DNA from: Stylophora pistillata
Lineage: Eukaryota
Length of the DNA: 64,000 nt
Reading direction: 5' to 3'
Assembly: GCF_002571385.2 (NCBI RefSeq)
Contig: NW_019217900.1
Coordinates: forward strand, 377,226-441,225
In this document: in pieces, positions 1,046 to 62,359 of the stretch
Layout of the letters: the number at the start of each line of letters is the position of its first letter
How positions within the stretch are numbered: position 1 is the first letter of the stretch
Notes under the pieces: generated by a model
The model's input: only the letters and a program-made list of their open reading frames with translations
Told to the model about the DNA's origin: nothing
Database searches by the model: none
Program-made: the position numbers and the translations under genes

Positions 1046-4000
1046 CTTGTGTAAGTGTTCGTTGATACTTTTTGCCTTCTGATAATCATTTACAGCTGCG
1101 AAATAAACCTCTACGTTAGTAAATAAAGCAACAAAGAGAAACACGACAAAAATGCCTTCCCAAAATCTGTATATCTGTCTATTGGTTTTCTTCTTTTTTT
1201 CGCCAATCAAATAACTCAAAATTTCACGTGATATGACACCTGCACGAGACATACAGCAAGTGCATGTGACAAGAAACTTGGTAGTGTGAAATACAACACG
1301 TTGCGTGACATTTAAAACGTCCAATACCAACTTTTGGTCTTAACATAACGACATGTTTATGTCCTAGCCGCGACAGGTAACCAACATAAGGAAATAAGGG
1401 AGTACCAATGTTCCATTACAAAACAATTTAAAAGAAATCTTCGTCGCTAAGAACAGTAAATTGGTGTCGACAAAGACGAGAATTCCGTACCTTCATCATA
1501 CATCTCATTTAGTATATGTGCCTCTGCCCTGTCGCACAACGCATCGACGTCGTTCTCATCAATCTTCAACGCCTCGTTACATTCAGTAATGGCATCGTTG
1601 GGATTATGAAGCTAAAAGAAGAAACAAATTGAAAGAAATTGCGTAAAACAAAGGAGACGAAACAATGAACACAAAATTCAAGGACGGATTCCCGACGGAA
1701 TTTCGTAAATTATCCGAAGACCTCCCAACGTTTATTACCCAATCAGAAAACAAGAAAACTCTCGTTCATTGTGTTGCTAAGTCACAATGCTAATGGACAC
1801 TTTGTATTGGCCTGGTCTTCACCGAATAGCTTTGTAAGTTTCTTTTCTTTTAAAAAATTCTGGCCGACAAAAATTTTAGAAAAGGGTTTTTACAACAACA
1901 AACCTTGACGTGACAGTGGCATAGCTGACGTCTTGCCTTGCCTGCTAGTGAACGGATTTTAGATTCTGTTTTGAGAGCTTGTTTAAGTTTGGATATTGCT
2001 TCTTCATATCTGTAAAGAAAAGACGAAGACACACAAGTTTATTGGAAAATGGAGATAAGAGAAAGGAGATGAAAAATAGCAGAACAAAAGGAATCAGTGC
2101 TAAAAAACGAATTTAAGAAGGAAAAAATGGGTTAAAAAAAGGACAAACATTTTCAAGCGGGATTTTAACAATCTGCGAAAATCTTCTACATCCTAAGGTA
2201 TCCTCCTTCTTTTACGGCTTACCTCCACCCCTCAAATCTTCGCTTATCCTAGAGAACAATTCTTCTAGGATTTCCTTCTACGTTTAACAAATTGGAGAAG
2301 AAGATAAAGACAGAGGTAACTTACTCTCCTCTGTTGATCAAATCTTGAGCTGCTTGCATCTGTTTATTCAATTTTTTTAATTTCTGTGAAAACAAAAAGG
2401 GTTCAAAATGTTTATTTGATTGGCTAACAATCATCCGCCAGCCAATGTTAAAGGTTATGCAGTTTTTTTTGTCTTTTTACCGAAACCTACTGCTTTGTTA
2501 ATTGTAAAGTGTTCAACAGCGTAATTTAGTTAGTCCAGATGTAAAGAGATGTGACAAATGGTTGGTGCGCTGGACTTCATATCGAGGGGTCCTGGGTCGA
2601 GGCCTAAGTCCTAGCAAATTGTCTTTGATTTCATATTGATATTGTGGGTGAAAAATACGTCTTGACGACTTTTGGGAATTGAAGGTTTACACCCAAAAGG
2701 AGCTGATTCTTAGAAAGGAGCTGTTTTACCTTGTAAAAAGGAAAACAATCTTTGTGATCAGGATCAAGCTTAAGGCACTCACGAATTTCCCTGAAATTTT
2801 AAAAAAATAGGTTTGAAGATTATATATCGACCACAGAGAAAACAATCCAAAGGTTGAATTTTGCAAAGGGCTATCCTGTTCAGTCCACTGTTCCCTTTTT
2901 GTTTAGAATGTTAAAATGCTTATAACAAATCTTCATTAGCAGGGCTCAACACTAGTGGTAGCCAACTAACCACACACCTGTAGAAATTCAGTTTTGGCTA
3001 GTAGTTTTTGATTTCCACTGGCCAGTTTGGCTAGTAAACAAACTGAAATTGTTGTAACATCTAAGTTGTCACAAGCCACTTGGCTAGTAAGTTGAAAAGT
3101 TAGTGCCGAGCCCTGATTAGAACTGGATACTGGAAACAATTGAAAGTAAACAGCAAGAAAATATTTAAGATGTCCTTGGTCAAGATTTGTAGGAGGGGCC
3201 GAGGAAGGCTTCACCAGAATTCAGGAGAAGATTTGTAAATACAATACCTGTTGTGAAAAAATGTGTGTCAGCCATTGCATCTGTATTTAACTTACCTCAG
3301 TGCATCCTCCAATTCTCCCATTCCATAATGTAACTCACTGAGTCTAAGATATGCTGCTGTATTGTCTGGGATAAGTTTAGTGGTTGGCCTAAAATAACGA
3401 TGCAAACCAACAATAACTAGAAGTCACTCTACACTTTAAGAGAATCTTCAAGACTGCTTTCCTTTTCAGGACAAGCCTGCCGTCATCCAGAAAATACACA
3501 ATGAATGATGGAATAAACACTCTAAAAATTTGATACTTTCTATAAATTTGCAACTGCCTTACCAGAGCTTAATAAATGTATTGAAAATGTTTACCGTATT
3601 GTGTATTACCAGAAGCTTGAAAAACACTTACTTAATGTCTGAAATTGCATTGATGTAGTCCCCCAAGTTTTCATGGCAGTCAGCTCTCATTATTCTTAGT
3701 TCAGTATCCCATGGAGCCACCTGAGGGAGGGAAAAGAAACAAAAATCCTATGAAGGCTTGACTCTCATTTACGCCATAAAATGCCGTGCTGTTCAATAAC
3801 GAAAATATGCTTGGATATTTGGCCACAGACTGTTCTGAGATGCAAATAGTTTTCCAAGAGCAAAGCTTGAAAACTATACATAAGCCTTTATCATTAAGTG
3901 CTTGTTCAAGGACAGCATTTATTCCAGGCAATGTTTATTTGCATTCAATATTTACATCAATAATAAGATACAAATAATTTGTTAATCAATATTAATCATT

Positions 4001-8367: not shown

Positions 8368-8393
8368 AATATGCCATTTCCTGAATTACCTTT

Positions 8394-8424
<31 letters not shown>

Positions 8425-8544
8425 ACCTTACATATAATAATAAGTTTTCATTCCCATGAAAATTAAACTCATTTCCATACAAATGATTGAGCACCAGGCC
8501 TCACATTCAAAAAGAGGCCAAAGGTAATTCGTAAATGGCCTATT
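8368..8544. mobile_element. MITE with AATA(T/G)GCCATTT terminal inverted repeats
   Basis: AATATGCCATTTCCTGAATTACCTTTGCCTCTTTTT mirrors AAAAAGAGGCCAAAGGTAATTCGTAAATGGCCTATT. Confidence 0.7.
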
Positions 8545-8643: not shown

Positions 8644-10488
8644 CTAGTTTATCCAGCCATATGAAAAGAAACCATTATTTAGCCAAAATGCACACTCTTC
8701 CATGTGGTAACCATGGTTATCAAGAACCTTTATACCACTGTCTGTGAACAGAGCAGTACTTCCAGGGAACTCTTTCCAAGAAGCATCTTGAAAGGTAAAT
8801 TCATTGTAAATAAATTTACCAAACTCTCTTCTAAGGTCCCTCATGAAGCTGTGGTCTCCGGGTGATGGAGTGTAACGAAATGCAGGAGGGAAACCAAACA
8901 GTGTGATAAGATCCCACATGTGAAATGCAAATGTTGCTGGAAATCCAACCACATTCATCGGAAATGATGGAGCATTTGTAACCACATATCTGTAAACTGG
9001 GCTCTTGAAACCTTGAGATGCATTCAAGGCCAACACATCATTTGGGCAAGAAACTCGTATATCAGAGGCCAGGGACGAATAAGTAAACTGAGGAGACAGA
9101 GTTCCCTCACTGGGCTCACTTTTGTTATACATGGCAAGTACCAAGCTGACATTCTTTCCAATAAAAGGAGCCAATTTTTGCTTCATATAAACACTGTAGT
9201 CTTCCCAAGTAGAATTGGAAAAATCCTTCACTGGTTTAATATTTACCTCTTGTGCTGTTGTCCCAATAATTAAAGGGACATCATTTGCTTCCCCTTCTAC
9301 CATGGCAAGAAGAGGAGGCTTGGGAACTACAACATTGTCAACAACGGCAACTGCCCCACAGAACACATTTTTCTGTGGCAGATCCATAAAATCAGCCATG
9401 CGCCAGTATGGGTATACATCCCATGGGATGGCAGCTTCCAGCTTCTCAGTAGTTAGCTGGTACAAACAGTCTCTTTCAGCTGCTGAGCTGTTTCTCACAC
9501 AATCACAATTTTTGATGAAAATTTTGTTGTCATCTGCAGCATCTTCCCATGATTTGTTATAAACAGCTGAGGCACTCATGATAATTGCTCGATGGAATAG
9601 CCCAGCTGCACCAGGGGAGGCAAGCAAAGCCAGTTCAGATGTACCACCAGAGCTTTGTCCAATCAGAGTAACAGATTTTGGATCACCACCAAATTTATGG
9701 ATGTTAGCTTTCACCCATTTTAAGGCTAATACCTGGTCCATGAAGCCATAGTTCCCTGAACTCTTGCTTGATGATGCCTCTGCTAAGGAGTTTAAAGCAA
9801 GAAAACCAAACACATTTAATCTGTAATTGAAAGAAACTCCAACAATCTTCATTTTTGAAACCATTTCCGGTGAAGGGTGAAGTCCATTCCAATCCCCAGA
9901 AGAATACATCAAAAATCCACCATGAATGTAAACTAAAACAGGGAGAAGTTTTTCAGTTGATCTGTGCTTTGGTGTCCATACATTTAAAAACAAGCAATCC
10001 TCACTGCCTATGACTTTTGTTGGATCTGGAGTGTGCAACACATCTTGCTGTGCACACCAACTTCCAAATTCACTAGCATCCAGAGTTCCATTCCAGCATT
10101 TGTTTATATCATCGTCACACGAGACCGGAGCTCTCCAGCGTAAATTTCCAACGGGCGATTTTGCATAAGGAATTCCTTTAAACACAACCGCATCACCCTC
10201 AAACTTACCGCGGATGACACCCGCTTTGATTGTCACTGTAATATGTTGGGTCTCCTCTAGCACGATTTGTTGGTATTCCTTGACTTTTCGAGAGAAATAA
10301 TAATACAGAAGGCCTGACAGAATAGCAACAAATGCAGCGGCAGTTAATACAAATGCAATTCTCTTTTTTGTTCTTTGCTTCAATAAACACGATTTAGAAC
10401 TGCCTCGAATGCTGTGTTGTCCTTCACTTTCGAACTCCAGTTCTTCTCGAATCGGAAGGAAAGGTGTTGATTCCCGAGATCTTCCCAT
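8644..10488 (-). CDS. Type B carboxylesterase (COesterase family), type II membrane protein, coding sequence intronless
   Basis: FKGIPYAKSPVGNLRW, SEDCLFLNVWTP, HGG oxyanion loop, GNYGFMDQVLALKWV, nucleophile GQSSGG, acid GTTAQE, His in AFHMWD; N-terminal TM helix IAFVLTAAAFVAILSGLLYYY; first ATG at 10488 (the track's 10530 start is GTG). Confidence 0.92.
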   Translation of the reverse strand: MGRSRESTPFLPIREELEFESEGQHSIRGSSKSCLLKQRTKKRIAFVLTAAAFVAILSGLLYYYFSRKVKEYQQIVLEETQHITVTIKAGVIRGKFEGDAVVFKGIPYAKSPVGNLRWRAPVSCDDDINKCWNGTLDASEFGSWCAQQDVLHTPDPTKVIGSEDCLFLNVWTPKHRSTEKLLPVLVYIHGGFLMYSSGDWNGLHPSPEMVSKMKIVGVSFNYRLNVFGFLALNSLAEASSSKSSGNYGFMDQVLALKWVKANIHKFGGDPKSVTLIGQSSGGTSELALLASPGAAGLFHRAIIMSASAVYNKSWEDAADDNKIFIKNCDCVRNSSAAERDCLYQLTTEKLEAAIPWDVYPYWRMADFMDLPQKNVFCGAVAVVDNVVVPKPPLLAMVEGEANDVPLIIGTTAQEVNIKPVKDFSNSTWEDYSVYMKQKLAPFIGKNVSLVLAMYNKSEPSEGTLSPQFTYSSLASDIRVSCPNDVLALNASQGFKSPVYRYVVTNAPSFPMNVVGFPATFAFHMWDLITLFGFPPAFRYTPSPGDHSFMRDLRREFGKFIYNEFTFQDASWKEFPGSTALFTDSGIKVLDNHGYHMEECAFWLNNGFFSYGWIN

Positions 10489-10967
10489 TTCTGTGAGAAA
10501 TTTCCAAACAAACTTTCTGTTCCACTGCACTTACAAGCCGTTAAAATCGCTTTTGGCGCACAATGTAGACCGTATCCTCCAATAAGTTAACGCAATACAA
10601 AACATAGGTATCACAAGGTATCATATTAACCTGCCGCCTATACAAAACATTCACCGAAATACTTCGATCAGAAAACAAAGTAAAAACCTGTACCAAAGAG
10701 CCGGTAAGTCACGTGAGGGGTAAATGATTACTGTTAGCGAGTGGGTTAGTAACGCCAGATACGGTATTGCGTGACATACAAACCCTCCCCGCCCCGTCAA
10801 AAGCTTCCAGCTTGCATGTAGCCCCCTATTCTTTCATCACCTCCAACACCGAAAAAAGACAAAACAAAACGAGACAAAAAAGAAAAATAAAAGAAAGGAA
10901 AAAAAAAGAAAACAGAAGAACGAGAGAATTAAAACAAAGGTGGTCAGTATTTGAAATTTTCAGTTAC

Positions 10968-11232
10968 CTGATTTTATCAACTGAGCTATTAACGTAAATA
11001 ATTGGCCACCGTAAAGAATTTATAACGCTGATGTTTGGGGCGTTAGCCTTTCTTCAATCGTCAAAGCATGGGTGGAAGGGTTTAAATCTCGAAACTTCAG
11101 CCTCAGAAACTCTTAACGGTGGCCTATATATATTATTTAACTCAACTGATAAAACCAATTTAACTTATAAAATCCCCGGTCCCACCTACGTAAACCCACA
11201 GTTTCTTTAAACATACCCTCTTTCACTCATTT
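10968..11232 (+). mobile_element. Degenerate Penelope-like pseudo-LTR fold-back copy
   Basis: TTATCAACTGAG...AATTGGCCACCGTAAAG...GCGTTAGCCTTTC followed by CTCGAAACTTCAGC...ACGGTGGCC...CTCAACTGATAAAACCAA...CACAGTTTCTTT, homologous to the 19260, 31135, 52894 and 58535 copies. Confidence 0.7.
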
Positions 11233-12211
11233 GTTATATAAGCTTCTATTTTAAATAATGTCATAGGTCTTCAACCAAAATGATGCATAATGCATGCGAT
11301 TTTCCTTAAAGCTGACTTACAGTTCAGAAATCAGAAAAAAAATTTGCTTACTTTGTGCTTCTTAACAGACCCACTCCTTTTCCAAAAAGGTCCCCCCCCA
11401 CCCCCCTCGGTAATAAGGACTCACCTGATATCCTTGAAAATCGACAAGCCTTGGGGACTTATGTAAATGTCGACGGGAATACAATGTTACTGTTTTCAGC
11501 TCTTAAATATCGAAACACAATCTCTCCATTCCCAACCATTTGTTCACGGTCGTCCTTTAGAGGAAAACTTTCCCGAGACTCTTAGTGAGCAGTACTGTAA
11601 AAACTTTTATCCTTATTTCATCTATTTCATCTGATTACATTTTAAGTGATTTACTCAGCGCAGCGTAAGTCCTGATTGATCAAACTGGGATCGTAAATTT
11701 CATTACATAGCAATTGAGACGATGAATTTCGCCAGTGTCATTCAAATGTATTGCGCATGCTCAAACAAACTAAATAAGGAATCACAGTGACCTCGCGGAT
11801 TAATATTCTCAAAGAATATTTCATTATTTGATGATAAAACTGGAGTCATCAGACTCGAAGCTAAAAAAGAAAAAAAGCTTGTATTTGTTACATATGAAGC
11901 TGTGTAGTCTGTGATTTGAATTTTTTTTACAAATGTGGGAGTGAAGGAATTTGGGTGGACGCCTTATCTCGTCCGAGTCCCCTCTCGTGCATTCTTCTCA
12001 GGAGAGGAAAAGGCTGCAAGCAATTTCTATTTTATTTTGTTTAGGCATGGTACATCACATTTCCAATCACGTGGTGGGCAGTTACATAACTTTATTGGAA
12101 CATGAGTTTACACAAGGAGTGGGTTCCAATTCCACGGGGCTGACTTCAACCCCAACATGGCCGCCATGCAATTGTTCTGGTAACCAGCATGGCCTTTGTG
12201 ACTTCATGTAA

Positions 12212-58500: not shown

Positions 58501-61353
58501 CCAGATATCCTCTAGCAAAAGTGAACTTTTATCTGGATATATCAACAAAGTTGAAATGGTAAATTGGCCACTGTAACGATTACAAAAGCTGACATTTCGA
58601 GCGTTAGCCCTTCATCGGAGCTATTTTGCTATTTCGCTCCAGAGCTATTTCGCTATTTCGCTCCGACGAAGGGCTAACGTTCGAAATGTCAGCTTTTGTA
58701 ATTGTTACGTTGGCCAATTTACCATTTCAACTTAGTTGATATATCCAAATTATTTCGTTACTCCCACCGACGCGGCCCCAAACAGTTTCTTTCAAAACTA
58801 TCAGCCTTTGAACTTTTATCTCCTTTGTAAGTGAATCTTGGGGGTTTTAATTAAAGCTGATTTCCGGTGGTCTACCATTACATGTCTGACCTGAACAGGC
58901 TCTTGTTGTTGAATTTAACTTTACGGCCCGTGTTTGGAAACAGCTACCTGTGAAACCATTGGCAGGCACTAATGGAAAAAGTTATTGAAATCCGCCTCCC
59001 AGTTAGCTCAATGGATAGAGCGCTGGACTGTTGTGCGGGAGGTCGATGGTTCGAGCCCTGGCCGGGCCAACACTCAAGGTCTTGAAATAATTGAGAAGAA
59101 TATGCTACCTTTCTATAACATCAAAAAATGGTTAGATATTCTAGTCTTCTCGGATAGGGACAAATAAATGGAGGTCTCGTCTCCTGCAGGGTTAGGGGTA
59201 GCAGACGTTAATTTCCCACACATGAGATTACTATGTGATGGATGTCCACCCCTGGGGTGGGATGGGTTGGGATTATTAAGAGGGCCACAGGATCATCAGT
59301 TTAATTACTGTCACATGCTACCCTCTTGAAATAAAGTCTATTCTATTCTATTCCATGGTATGCAACATTTAGATAACCTTAACCTACATTGTAAAGTTGG
59401 ATACCTTAATGATTCAAATTAGTGTTTGTTGATTTTTAGGCGAGGTATGCAGGCTCCTCAACTGACTGTCTCCATTAATAATCCCAGAGTGACGTGAGTA
59501 TCATAAGTTGACCTTGATGCAAAGATGTACAATGTAATTCCTACATCAACATGAAAACTCTGATTTAAACCTGTACACCCTAACATTGGCATGTTTATTC
59601 TCCACACTGTTCTCTATACATTTGCTTTGGTGCAGACAAGGAAAATTTGTTTAAATCAAATAAGATTTAGTTAACCATGCATGATGGTGGTGTACTGTGA
59701 AAATGGGCAAGACGCCAAGATCAGTAAAAAAAAAAATGCATGGCATCGAATTAGAATCCCGATAGAACACAATGAAGGGCTTTTTGATCCAGTGCTCTGA
59801 AACTAAAACCAAGATAATCTTAATGGTCAATCAGAGAGAAAAAGAATTCCCTGAAGAGCGTATTAGAACTCAAAGTAAAAACAAGTAAACTGCCTAAAAT
59901 GTGGAAAAATGCAGATGAACAATTGGTTTTGGGAAAAACATTGTACATTTGTAGTTAAAATCACTGGCAGGGAAAAGTCTGATCTATAATTTAAATATTT
60001 AGGTTAACAAGAACTCCACAATGGAAACAACCTGTGAGTCAACAGACAAACCCAAGGAGCAGAAGAGGATGGAGGGGAAAATCTGCAGCAAACATTCCAA
60101 GAGGCATGGGTCTAACTGAGGATCTGAGAATTTCAGTGCCAAACAATTTACATCAGGTGAGATAAAGCAGAAAATCATGAAGGGTCCAGTTGTTTGAAGG
60201 TAGATTAGCTCTAACCCTAGTTTAAATTTTAATGCAGGTTTCTATATTTGTTTGTGCAAAAGCTGTTTTGGGACAATTTTCCCAATTCTTTTTAAGAGCA
60301 TTCAATCATCAAATTGTAGACAAATGGAATTAAACTGAATTTTCTTTTAAAGCTTTCAGATCTGAAATCAGACTTCGCACTAACCCTGGGTTATCTTATC
60401 CCACCATAGTTAGTAACTATGACCCCACCCTTGACCAACCTGGCTCAGTACTCTAAGCTTACAACTGTTTTGATTACCATAGAAAATAAAAATAACTCTT
60501 GGCAAATAAATTTGCAGTGTAATTAAGTCACCAATGTCTGGCAGTTCTATAGCGCACAGTATTTTCCATATTATGCCTTTCTTTCAACCCTGTAATTGCA
60601 ATTGGCTGCAGTGAGGGGTTTTTTACAGTTAAAATGCCTTGAGTCAAATGATTCAGTGCAAGACTAGAAGGCTAGCAGATTCCTTGGATCTTGATTATTA
60701 AATTCCTTTTAAATTGTTCAAGTATCTGTTGTCGTCTCTTCTTGCCAACATGAACAGATCTCAAATCCACACAATGCTGATTAGGAGTTTCTCAAAATGT
60801 AACTATAGCACATCGAGACTGAAAAGATGATTCCTGATACTTTATATTTCAATGCTGTTGTGTGTGTGTGTGTGTTTTTTTTTTATAGCTTTCCCCACTC
60901 AAGCCACTTGTGTACACAAACCATTTCAATCCACCAATGAATACTGCCATGACAGGGAAGGTATGTTGGGAAAAACTTTGTAATGTCTGTTCAATATTTA
61001 CCATGTCAGTGTTCATTTTTGATGATAGTTCCTCTTTCCAAATTATTTCAGTCACTTGAGAGGAGGTCATTCCATTTCATCAATTTTGCCAAGAGACAGC
61101 ACTTGACATTGTTGTAGATTAAATGAACCCTTTCCAATCTAACTTTAGAGTTTATAGTCTCCACACTGTTTTCATAGCCATAGTAAACCCTCTTTAAGAT
61201 GGGTGTACACCAGATTCATGTGTTATCATGGTTTTTAACATCTTTTTGTTGTTGTTTTTTTTTCCATTTATTTTTTAGACATTCGCCACTCTGGATGAAA
61301 GATTCTCCAGCATGTCTCAACACAAGCCTGTCAGGACTATCGTTGTGGAGTAG
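55510..61353 (+). CDS. FYTTD1: UAP56-interacting factor / forty-two-three domain protein (FYTTD1/UIF-like mRNA export adaptor). Exons: 55510-55537, 56489-56856, 57966-58082, 58318-58385, 59440-59493, 60003-60156, 60889-60960, 61279-61353
   Basis: N-terminal UAP56-binding motif MSTNIDRSLDDIIK, K/R/Q-rich disordered body, LTVSINNP motif, C-terminal TLDERFS...RTIVVE; all exons join in phase with GT-AG introns. Confidence 0.78.
56160..56375. mobile_element. TTAA/CCCTT-ended MITE; further copies at about 42715-42910, 56904-57116 and 61926-62127
   Basis: CCCTTAAACTCCCATGAGTGACCAAGACAGAATTTCTCC...GAGATCTTGGGGAATAAAAGGATTAA. Confidence 0.75.
57311..57810. mobile_element. pogo/Tigger-like MITE (TA-flanked)
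   Basis: TACTGTAAAAGCCCGCAGATA at left mirrors TATCCACGGGGTTTTATGGTA; repeated GGCTTATCTGC subterminal motif. Confidence 0.65.
58535..58808 (+). mobile_element. Penelope-like pseudo-LTR fold-back with two opposed hammerhead motifs (58588-58621 minus; 58660-58693 plus) and 13-bp TSD
   Basis: Arms 58535-58621 and 58660-58746; TGAACTTTTATCT at 58522-58534 and 58809-58821. Confidence 0.88.
58990..59353 (+). mobile_element. tRNA-derived SINE family B with (CTATT)n tail
   Basis: A box TAGCTCAATGG, B box GGTTCGAGCCC, shared GTCTTCTCGGATAGGG...GACGTTAATTTCCCAC body, AATAAAGT(CTATT)3. Confidence 0.87.
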
Positions 61354-62167: not shown

Positions 62168-62359
62168 CAGGGCTTGACACCAACTTTTACTTTTCAACTT
62201 ACTAGCCGAGTGGCTTGTGACATCTCAGTTGTTTTTAGATGTTATGACAATTTTGGTTTGTTTACTTGCCAAACTGGCCAGTGGAAATCGAAAACCATTA
62301 GCCAAAACTGAATTTCTACTAGTCTGTGGCTAGTGGGCTACCTATAGTGTCGAGCCGTG
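62168..62359. mobile_element. hAT-like MITE, third copy of the 2940-3115 family, 5-bp TSD AACTC
   Basis: CAGGGCTTGACAC...GTGTCGAGCCGTG; AACTC at 62163-62167 and 62360-62364. Confidence 0.83.

What the first reader, a model, noticed from the sequence alone, without database searches (positions are those of the whole stretch)
10968..58821. Family of five ORF-less hammerhead pLTR insertions with a stereotyped inverted cap and a shared non-canonical core
Seen: copies at about 10968, 19260, 31114, 52894 and 58535, none with an RT or GIY-YIG ORF. Four have an inverted partial copy whose outer end falls at almost the same position (the GG(A/T)TATATCAAC-like site, roughly 60-70 nt before the 3' end) while the inner breakpoint varies. 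All five intact motifs read CCGA(C/U)GA instead of CUGANGA (U4C) and have an extra A before helix II. Three copies have clear 12-13 bp TSDs. Inference: this is a recently mobile non-autonomous ribozyme retroelement (retrozyme-like). The fixed outer end may mark an endonuclease or priming site, and the fixed U4C core suggests an attenuated or repurposed ribozyme.
Basis: partly seen in the sequence, partly recalled or inferred. Interest (0 to 1): 0.7.

Follow-up and report, generated by a model that had tools for sequence, protein, structure and literature searches.

The report
Coral Penelope retrotransposon stubs, mutant hammerhead
These five short repeats are protein-free end pieces of a very abundant coral Penelope-type retrotransposon whose main subfamily has one changed letter in its hammerhead ribozyme core, and their ends likely record the element copying uncut RNA from two start sites into both strands of one DNA break.

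Summary
The five insertions, the inverted arms and three 12-13 bp TSDs are real. They are not a separate retrozyme: the same pLTR follows an RT + GIY-YIG ORF of a Neptune-type Penelope-like element (PLE) elsewhere in this coral genome, and short and ORF-linked copies share the same variants. The inverted 5'-truncated arm, a tail on one end, the TSD and the extra A are published PLE features; the same hammerhead with U4 is catalogued from Acropora digitifera. Only three of the five insertions carry C4. Not found in print: C4 is near-fixed in the dominant, younger subfamily (3620 exact C4 motifs against 584 U4; 2344 against 78 within the subfamily). Inverted pairs nearly always join one tailed and one tail-less arm (25 of 27). 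Half of all arms (41 of 83) begin at the hammerhead's 5' edge, just behind TATA- and CCAAT-like boxes, and only 1 at the cleavage site. Likely mechanism: uncleaved mRNA is reverse-transcribed from two internal start sites, primed by both strands of a staggered cut; priming on the upstream pLTR runs off the mRNA 5' end and gives the stubs. Known kind, new variant, useful mechanistic read-out.

The parts
10969..11056 (-). Diverged tail-less pLTR arm, degenerate hammerhead (U4 type)
   Evidence: 75% identity to U4 locus L081; sequence
11075..11223 (+). Diverged tailed pLTR arm of the same old insertion; no TSD found
   Evidence: 70% identity to L079
19257..19503 (-). Tailed arm (-87 to about +159), C4 hammerhead with C3 at 19416; includes CCAAT- and TATA-like boxes; left flank is an N gap at 19252-19256
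19511..19688 (+). Tail-less arm (-87 to +90), C4 hammerhead with C3 at 19598; 3 differences in 170 shared positions from its partner arm
31101..31113 (.). Left TSD, 13 bp
31114..31286 (+). Single tailed stub (about -2 to +149), C4 hammerhead with C3 at 31137, preceded by about 20 nt of filler
31287..31299 (.). Right TSD, 13 bp
52882..52893 (.). Left TSD, 12 bp
52896..52950 (-). Tail-less arm (+36 to +90), sister (U4-type) subfamily
52952..53098 (+). Tailed arm starting at +3 (core positions 3-5 absent), sister subfamily
53099..53110 (.). Right TSD, 12 bp
58522..58534 (.). Left TSD, 13 bp
58535..58621 (-). Tail-less arm (-3 to +87), C4 hammerhead with C3 at 58618
58622..58656 (.). Junction filler made of short reiterations resembling the element's -7..+1 edge
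   Evidence: sequence
58657..58808 (+). Tailed arm (-6 to about +146), C4 hammerhead with C3 at 58663
58809..58821 (.). Right TSD, 13 bp

Best explanation
The insertions are short copies of the terminal repeat of an autonomous Neptune-type Penelope-like retrotransposon present in thousands of copies in this coral genome, likely made when the element's own RT-endonuclease copies its uncleaved mRNA from two internal start sites into both strands of one staggered cut. Shown: the element is pLTR (hammerhead) - tail - 5'UTR - ORF (RT, CX4CxxC linker, GIY-YIG) - pLTR, about 3 kb; 3' ends fall at about +90 or about +150; inverted insertions join one arm of each kind; TSDs have a median of 13 bp; half of all arms start at -7..+7; C4 is near-fixed in the main subfamily. 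Inferred: (1) +90 and +150 are the two RT start sites; (2) each of the two 3'-OH ends of the cut primes one cDNA, one from each site, and the cDNAs are joined head to head, often through short homology; (3) the mRNA starts at about -7, so priming on the upstream pLTR runs off the mRNA 5' end and yields 100-160 nt ORF-less stubs, while priming on the downstream pLTR yields ordinary 5'-truncated copies that enter the ORF; (4) U4C weakens a ribozyme whose cleavage is not needed for insertion. Odds: identity as PLE by-products about 0.95; two-primer model about 0.7; mRNA-start explanation of the -7 edge about 0.6; U4C lowering cleavage about 0.75, being adaptive about 0.2.
For: ORF link: GIY-YIG and RVT_1 ORFs directly upstream of the same pLTR in L003, L012, L033, L052; 96 protein matches at 87-100% identity among 94 scored of 6598 candidates; in 30 such loci a CCGACGA core follows in most that are not gapped or cut, 101 nt after the stop. 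Upstream pLTR - tail - 5'UTR - ATG in L166, L157 (C4) and L159, L163 (U4); near-complete element L302. No polymorphism of 9 tested separates 64 short from 85 long C4 arms (lowest p 0.07). 3' ends: 39 of 95 arms at +86..+98, 56 of 95 at +144..+166, none between. Pairing: 25 tailed/tail-less, 2 tail-less/tail-less (one next to a gap), 0 tailed/tailed among 27 classifiable inverted C4 insertions, p 2.5e-6 against independent choice. In 11 of 25 the tail-less arm reaches further 5', which a fold-back of one cDNA cannot give. Arms of one insertion differ by 2.4% against 4.2% between insertions. 5' ends: 41 of 83 gap-free arms at -7..+7, 0 at -69..-8, 1 at the cleavage site +28; arm lengths within a pair are correlated (13 both short, 8 both long, 4 mixed; p 0.0024); TTTAAAA 31-25 nt before -7 in 73 of 86 C4 arms (TATAAA in 5 of 17 U4 arms) and CCAAT in 74 of 86 and 13 of 17. 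Literature: a PLE protein cleaves and extends both strands, starts at two internal sites bounding the tail, is predicted to be a dimer, and inserts equally well with a dead hammerhead (PMC11167929).
Against: No transcription start was measured: only assembled contigs were available. D. virilis Penelope has a TATA-less internal promoter (PMC2377424), so the TATA reading is not a PLE rule. A stable hairpin covering the core (predicted -11.2 kcal/mol for C4, -12.3 for U4) could itself cause the 5' pile-up. A few arms do start at -11..-60 in the hammerhead-selected sample. The tail is about 60 nt, longer than the 30-40 bp reported. No intact full-length ORF without gaps was found (longest gap-free 594 aa). 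42 of 85 sampled insertions are single arms, which need a second route. No empty allele seen among the joints shown (157 not shown). Neptune placement rests on motifs and the published hammerhead match, not on a tree.
Confidence: 0.7

Rival explanations
1. The stubs are an independent non-autonomous element (retrozyme- or SINE-like) with its own short master, mobilised in trans, perhaps through circular RNA.
For: Half of arms are short with a sharp 5' edge; pLTR-derived non-autonomous elements are described (bioRxiv 10.64898/2026.07.22.740005; PMC8557442); one 135-bp tandem array exists (L303).
Against: No private variants in short arms; short-short distance 5.4% is not lower than short-long 4.9%; 4 of 25 pairs join a short arm to one that runs far upstream; stubs at -7 lack the upstream promoter-like boxes; not tandem; only 1 of 83 arms starts at the cleavage site.
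Confidence: 0.07
2. All copies are primed on the downstream pLTR, and the 5' pile-up is a truncation hot spot caused by the hammerhead hairpin (RT release or cDNA snap-back), not the mRNA start.
For: Predicted hairpin spans about -3..+30 in both core types; 4-nt self-complementarity between -6..-3 and +4..+7 is used at several junctions; the pile-up also occurs in U4 copies.
Against: RT arrest at a hairpin is expected at its 3' base (+29), where there is no peak; the edge at -7 is hard (0 of 83 at -69..-8); arm lengths are correlated within pairs; promoter-like boxes sit at canonical spacing.
Confidence: 0.3
3. The inverted arm comes from self-priming (fold-back) of one strand, on a sense cDNA or an antisense template as proposed for rotifer Penelope.
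For: Arms share sub-variants; short palindromes or microhomology at junctions; proposed in PMC3846280.
Against: In 11 of 25 pairs the tail-less arm is the one reaching further 5', so copying it back cannot create a tailed partner; fold-back gives no reason for the second arm to stop at +90 directly against the TSD. An antisense-template version is not formally excluded.
Confidence: 0.15
4. U4C is a neutral passenger fixed in whichever master copy happened to expand; the ribozyme was already nearly inactive.
For: One change suffices; minimal PLE hammerheads cleave poorly (PMC4209133); dead ribozyme does not affect insertion in vitro (PMC11167929); U4 sister subfamily also expanded, with the same architecture.
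Against: All other core positions and helices stay intact in thousands of copies (exact 28-mer counts), though young age explains this too; none of 56 published motifs has C4.
Confidence: 0.65

Closest known systems
Neptune PLE of Acropora digitifera with minimal hammerhead (Cervera and de la Pena 2014, PMC4209133, Table S1 and Fig. S3)
   Same: Same helix I, extra A, helix II and loop, palindromic helix III and the same 12 nt upstream; hammerheads about 3.0 kb apart (published 3033 nt; here about 2.9-3.0 kb in L297, L302).
   Different: Published motif has U4; here the dominant subfamily has C4; sequence after helix I differs.
Canonical PLE insertion structure (Craig et al. 2021, PMC8557442; Arkhipova et al. 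2013, PMC3846280; Schostak et al. 2008, PMC2377424)
   Same: 5'-truncated copies, partial tandems, inverted 5'-truncated arm, tail at one end, TSD of about 8-10 bp in rotifer.
   Different: Tail about 60 nt rather than 30-40; TSD median 13; strict one-tail rule and the 5' edge at the hammerhead are counted here.
Poseidon PAc of Anolis (Frangieh et al. 2024, PMC11167929)
   Same: Two internal RT start sites bounding the tail; both strands extended; uncleaved RNA is the substrate; AT-rich targets (TSDs here 76% A+T).
   Different: Other clade; there the ORF starts inside the hammerhead, here about 227 nt after C3; natural core change here.
Non-LTR retrozymes (Cervera and de la Pena 2020, PMC7229834; bioRxiv 10.64898/2026.07.22.740005)
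   Same: Short, non-coding, type I hammerhead, PLE-related, occur in corals.
   Different: Retrozymes are tandem 150-450 bp units with canonical, fast hammerheads and circular RNA; these are dispersed single or head-to-head stubs with a minimal C4 motif and no lineage of their own.
Viroid U4C hammerhead variant (Ambros and Flores 1998, as cited in PMC3088659)
   Same: Same core change, reported to lower cleavage in vitro considerably while allowing infectivity.
   Different: A rare variant of a canonical ribozyme, not a fixed state in thousands of genomic copies.

Membership tests
EN+ Penelope-like element | Single ORF with RT and C-terminal GIY-YIG | tested here: met
   P0002: RVT_1 31.7 bits (cut-off 29.6), GIY-YIG 20.9 bits (cut-off 22.6); GIY-YIG 21.9-22.8 bits in four loci. 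In related loci, not in the window.
EN+ Penelope-like element | CCHH motif with two cysteines between GIY and YIG; DKG motif | tested here: met
   Cysteine pair between VIY and YIG and two downstream histidines in P0002; DKG read by eye from L140; motif definitions from PMC8557442.
EN+ Penelope-like element | pLTRs from partial tandems, inverted 5'-truncated arm, tail at one end, TSD | tested here: met
   tail about 60 nt, longer than reported
Neptune clade | CX2-5CxxC linker between RT and EN | tested here: met
   CX4CxxC in P0001/P0002; shared with Nematis per PMC8557442
Neptune clade | Placement in RT phylogeny | not tested
   No reference PLE sequences were fetched; support is the near-identical hammerhead of a published Neptune element
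Minimal PLE hammerhead (min-HHR) | Extra nucleotide between 9 and 10.1, G10.1-C11.1 pair, palindromic helix III, short helix I | tested here: met
   sequence against PMC4209133; helix II pair probability 0.89
Minimal PLE hammerhead (min-HHR) | CUGANGA core | tested here: not met
   C4 in 3620, U4 in 584, A/G in 71 exact motifs; met in the sister subfamily
Minimal PLE hammerhead (min-HHR) | Self-cleavage as dimer or with protein | not testable with these tools
   Needs a cleavage assay; only 1 of 83 arms starts at the cleavage site
Non-LTR retrozyme | Head-to-tail tandem units each with a hammerhead | tested here: not met
   Of 85 sampled C4 insertions 44 single, 37 inverted, 4 complex; one tandem array elsewhere
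Non-LTR retrozyme | Non-autonomous lineage distinct from its helper | tested here: not met
Non-LTR retrozyme | Circular RNA intermediate | not testable with these tools
   Only contigs available

The most novel reading that the evidence does not exclude
The most successful PLE subfamily of this coral has switched off cleavage by the hammerhead at the very 5' end of its mRNA (keeping it as a structural or dimerising element), and PLEs insert by obligately asymmetric twin priming: a dimeric enzyme starts one cDNA at each of two internal sites from the two strands of one cut. The thousands of solo PLE hammerheads in animal genomes would then be run-offs from the mRNA 5' end, marking the start site, not random truncations.
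Probability: 0.35. Interest if true: 0.65.

Novelty: new variant of a known kind. Interest (0 to 1): 0.4.

Why it matters
How PLEs make tandem and inverted insertions, and what their hammerheads do, are stated open questions (PMC8557442, PMC11167929). This family gives a natural test of both: a U4/C4 pair of sister subfamilies with otherwise identical ribozymes, and thousands of insertions whose ends predict two start sites, one tail per event and an mRNA start at the ribozyme's 5' edge. As a feature of this window, though, it is an ordinary abundant repeat of a known class.

Tried and rejected
Rfam scan: no hammerhead model matched; only sub-threshold miRNA-like hairpin hits from the inverted arms. 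Cleavage site as 5' end of the template: rejected (1 of 83 at +28). Fold-back of one cDNA: rejected for 11 of 25 pairs. Cap-derived G before -7: not seen (G in 2 of 28). Target-RNA microhomology at the two 3' ends: mean 1.9 nt against 0.9 in permutations, but the maximal-TSD definition inflates the observed value, so inconclusive. FastTree of 118 short arms gave no useful resolution. RNA contigs of four studies cover pLTR, tail, 5'UTR and ORF start and show U at position 4 in 6-10% of depth, but contigs cannot show a start, strand or level, and intronic copies or DNA can give this. Search for empty alleles at 52894 and 58535 in four runs: none among the joints shown; three runs hold contigs entering the 52894 copy. 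No gap-free full-length ORF found. Earlier findings of this scan: nothing. Literature searches for a C4 PLE hammerhead, PLE twin priming and solo pLTR start sites found no such report; Lunse et al. (small hammerhead variants in PLEs) and Ambros and Flores 1998 were not held, and the supplement of PMC7229834 (16 A. millepora hammerhead families) could not be read: these could already show C4.
Full report
Numbering: hammerhead C3 = 0; the expected cleavage site lies between +27 and +28.

1. Observation. All five places hold related sequence. Four are head-to-head inverted pairs and 31114 is a single arm. Exact TSDs: 13 bp (31101/31287), 12 bp (52882/53099), 13 bp (58522/58809); none at 10968; untestable at 19260 because of an N gap. 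Five intact motifs read CCGA(C/U)GA plus an extra A, but they lie in three insertions (19260, 31114, 58535). Copy 52894 lacks core positions 3-5 and is 93.7% identical to a U4 locus; copy 10968 is 70-75% identical and reads U at position 4. The window holds no RT or GIY-YIG remnant. Rfam found no hammerhead. The host is a coral by the labels of RNA runs that hold the sequence; the genome has 398 Mb.

2. The family. Exact 28-mers of the hammerhead: C4 3620, U4 584, A or G 71; reversed controls 0. With a subfamily marker added: C4 2344, U4 78; C4 sits in a CpG, so these 78 may be decay (inference). A downstream 28-mer occurs 3933 times. Tailed C4 arms differ pairwise by 5.6% (100 arms), U4 arms by 13.6% (18 arms): C4 marks the younger, larger subfamily. 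In RNA contigs of four studies U at this position makes up 6-10% of depth.

3. The partner. Of 18 long ORFs near family copies, four carried GIY-YIG directly upstream of the pLTR, one of them also RVT_1. That protein found 96 matches at 87-100% identity (94 of 6598 candidates scored). The stop lies 101 nt before C3. [quoted passage not shown] Upstream, pLTR, tail and 5'UTR lead to an ATG about 227 nt after C3, in both C4 (L166, L157) and U4 (L159, L163) copies. L302 and L297 are near-complete, about 3 kb, but gapped or broken; the longest gap-free ORF piece is 594 aa. None of 9 polymorphisms separates 64 short from 85 long C4 arms. So the stubs come from the autonomous element.

4. Ends. Sample A: the first 100 listed C4 matches, 85 insertions after merging overlaps: 25 inverted tailed/tail-less, 2 tail-less/tail-less (one beside a gap), 0 tailed/tailed, 10 inverted with one unclassified arm, 44 single, 4 complex. 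Against independent choice of end, 25 of 27 gives p 2.5e-6. TSD >=10 bp in 28 of 63 gap-free insertions against 2 of 600 controls; median 13, 76% A+T. Sample B, chosen by the downstream 28-mer and so not by the hammerhead: 95 arms from the first 100 listed matches (four places lacking a fetched locus were left out, a slight bias towards hammerhead-bearing arms). 3' ends: 39 at +86..+98, 56 at +144..+166, none between (ends below +86 are excluded by the pattern). 5' ends, after dropping 12 arms next to gaps: 41 of 83 at -7..+7, 0 at -69..-8, 33 further upstream, 9 at +18..+58, of which 1 at +28. In pairs, arm lengths go together (13 both short, 8 both long, 4 mixed; p 0.0024); the tail-less arm reaches further 5' in 11 of 25, the tailed in 9, 5 tie. 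Arms of one insertion differ by 2.4%, arms of different insertions by 4.2% (29 pairs). A TTTAAAA box lies 31-25 nt before -7 in 73 of 86 C4 arms (TATAAA in 5 of 17 U4 arms) and CCAAT further up in 74 of 86 and 13 of 17; TATA and CCAAT spacing is from my own knowledge.

5. Mechanism. Shown: structure, two end classes, one tail per inverted event, TSD, 5' edge, C4 fixation. Inferred: the two ends are RT start sites, as shown in vitro for the Anolis PLE, which also cleaves and extends both strands, is predicted to be a dimer and uses uncleaved RNA (PMC11167929, results read; its supplements gave no hits for four terms). Both target 3' ends prime, one at each site; cDNAs from the same source are joined head to head. 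The mRNA likely starts at -7; priming on the upstream pLTR runs off its end and gives stubs, priming on the downstream pLTR gives longer copies. In D. virilis the start site also lies shortly before the hammerhead, but the promoter is internal and TATA-less (PMC2377424 passages; PMC4209133). The main rival is a structure-caused hot spot: both core types are predicted to fold into a hairpin that pairs the core with the cleavage region (-11.2 and -12.3 kcal/mol, against -7.0 for the hammerhead monomer). U4C is reported to lower cleavage considerably in a viroid (statement in PMC3088659; the original was not held); whether it is adaptive here is open, and drift is the likelier.

6. What is known. 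Cervera and de la Pena 2014 (main text parts 1-2 of 4, supplement parts 1-2 of 3) list the same motif with U4 for an A. digitifera Neptune element, describe the extra nucleotide, solo motifs and opposite-strand pairs 100-700 bp apart; none of their 56 aligned motifs has C4. The inverted truncated arm with a one-sided tail and TSD is described in PMC8557442 and PMC3846280 (passages and Discussion); the latter proposes self-priming. Retrozymes differ (PMC7229834 passages; bioRxiv 10.64898/2026.07.22.740005 parts 1-3 of 5; PMC6765202 passages). Searches for a C4 PLE hammerhead, PLE twin priming or a start-site origin of solo pLTRs found nothing, but Lunse et al. and one supplement were not readable and may bear on C4.

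7. Against my reading: no measured start site, no cleavage data, no intact full-length ORF, no empty allele, no RT tree; half the insertions are single arms; samples come from contigs C1-C4 of a gapped assembly.

8. Verdict. Real feature, known class, new variant. Interest 0.4: the window itself is ordinary, but the fixed U4C core and the end statistics make two open PLE questions testable.

Noticed in passing
all fetched loci: Arms starting at -7 are preceded by C in 13 of 16 C4 cases (one of the other three is really a longer copy), whereas longer C4 copies mostly have T there; not a cap-derived G; possibly an untemplated G on the cDNA capturing an acceptor ending in C. Unexplained.
   Followed up: partly
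L303 (G000:C335:93340-94020): Five exact 135-bp head-to-tail units, each with a U4 hammerhead on the young-subfamily background plus flanking DNA: a local tandem array that resembles the proposed birth of a retrozyme from a pLTR.
   Followed up: partly
window 58622-58656 and 31114-31134: Junction fillers of short reiterated pieces, at 58622 resembling the element's 5' edge; suggests repeated re-priming at the template end.
   Followed up: no
window 52521-52841 and 49817-51518: MFS transporter exons (Pfam MFS_1); the 52894 insertion lies about 40 nt after the stop of the likely last exon, so probably in the 3'UTR.
   Followed up: no
window 30593-31113: Tandem repeat of about 176 bp directly left of the 31114 TSD.
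   Followed up: no
window 18670-19008 / 43934-44279; 25948-26222 / 58985-59260; 2938-3115 / 31972-32160 / 62189-62359: Other dispersed repeat families; the one at 58985 begins with a tRNA-like stretch and looks like a tRNA-derived SINE.
   Followed up: no
window 8644-10530 (-), 12212-13156 (-), 32615-35345 (-), 27133-27573 and 56437-56907: Host genes: carboxylesterase, rhodopsin-family GPCR, TMTC-type TPR protein, ligand-gated ion channel exons.
   Followed up: no
window 8386-8527 and 45026-45109: Long imperfect hairpins giving sub-threshold miRNA-model hits; likely small inverted-repeat elements.
   Followed up: no
L127, L142, L152, L154, L187: Family copies with internal deletions joining the RT region to the pLTR.
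   Followed up: no
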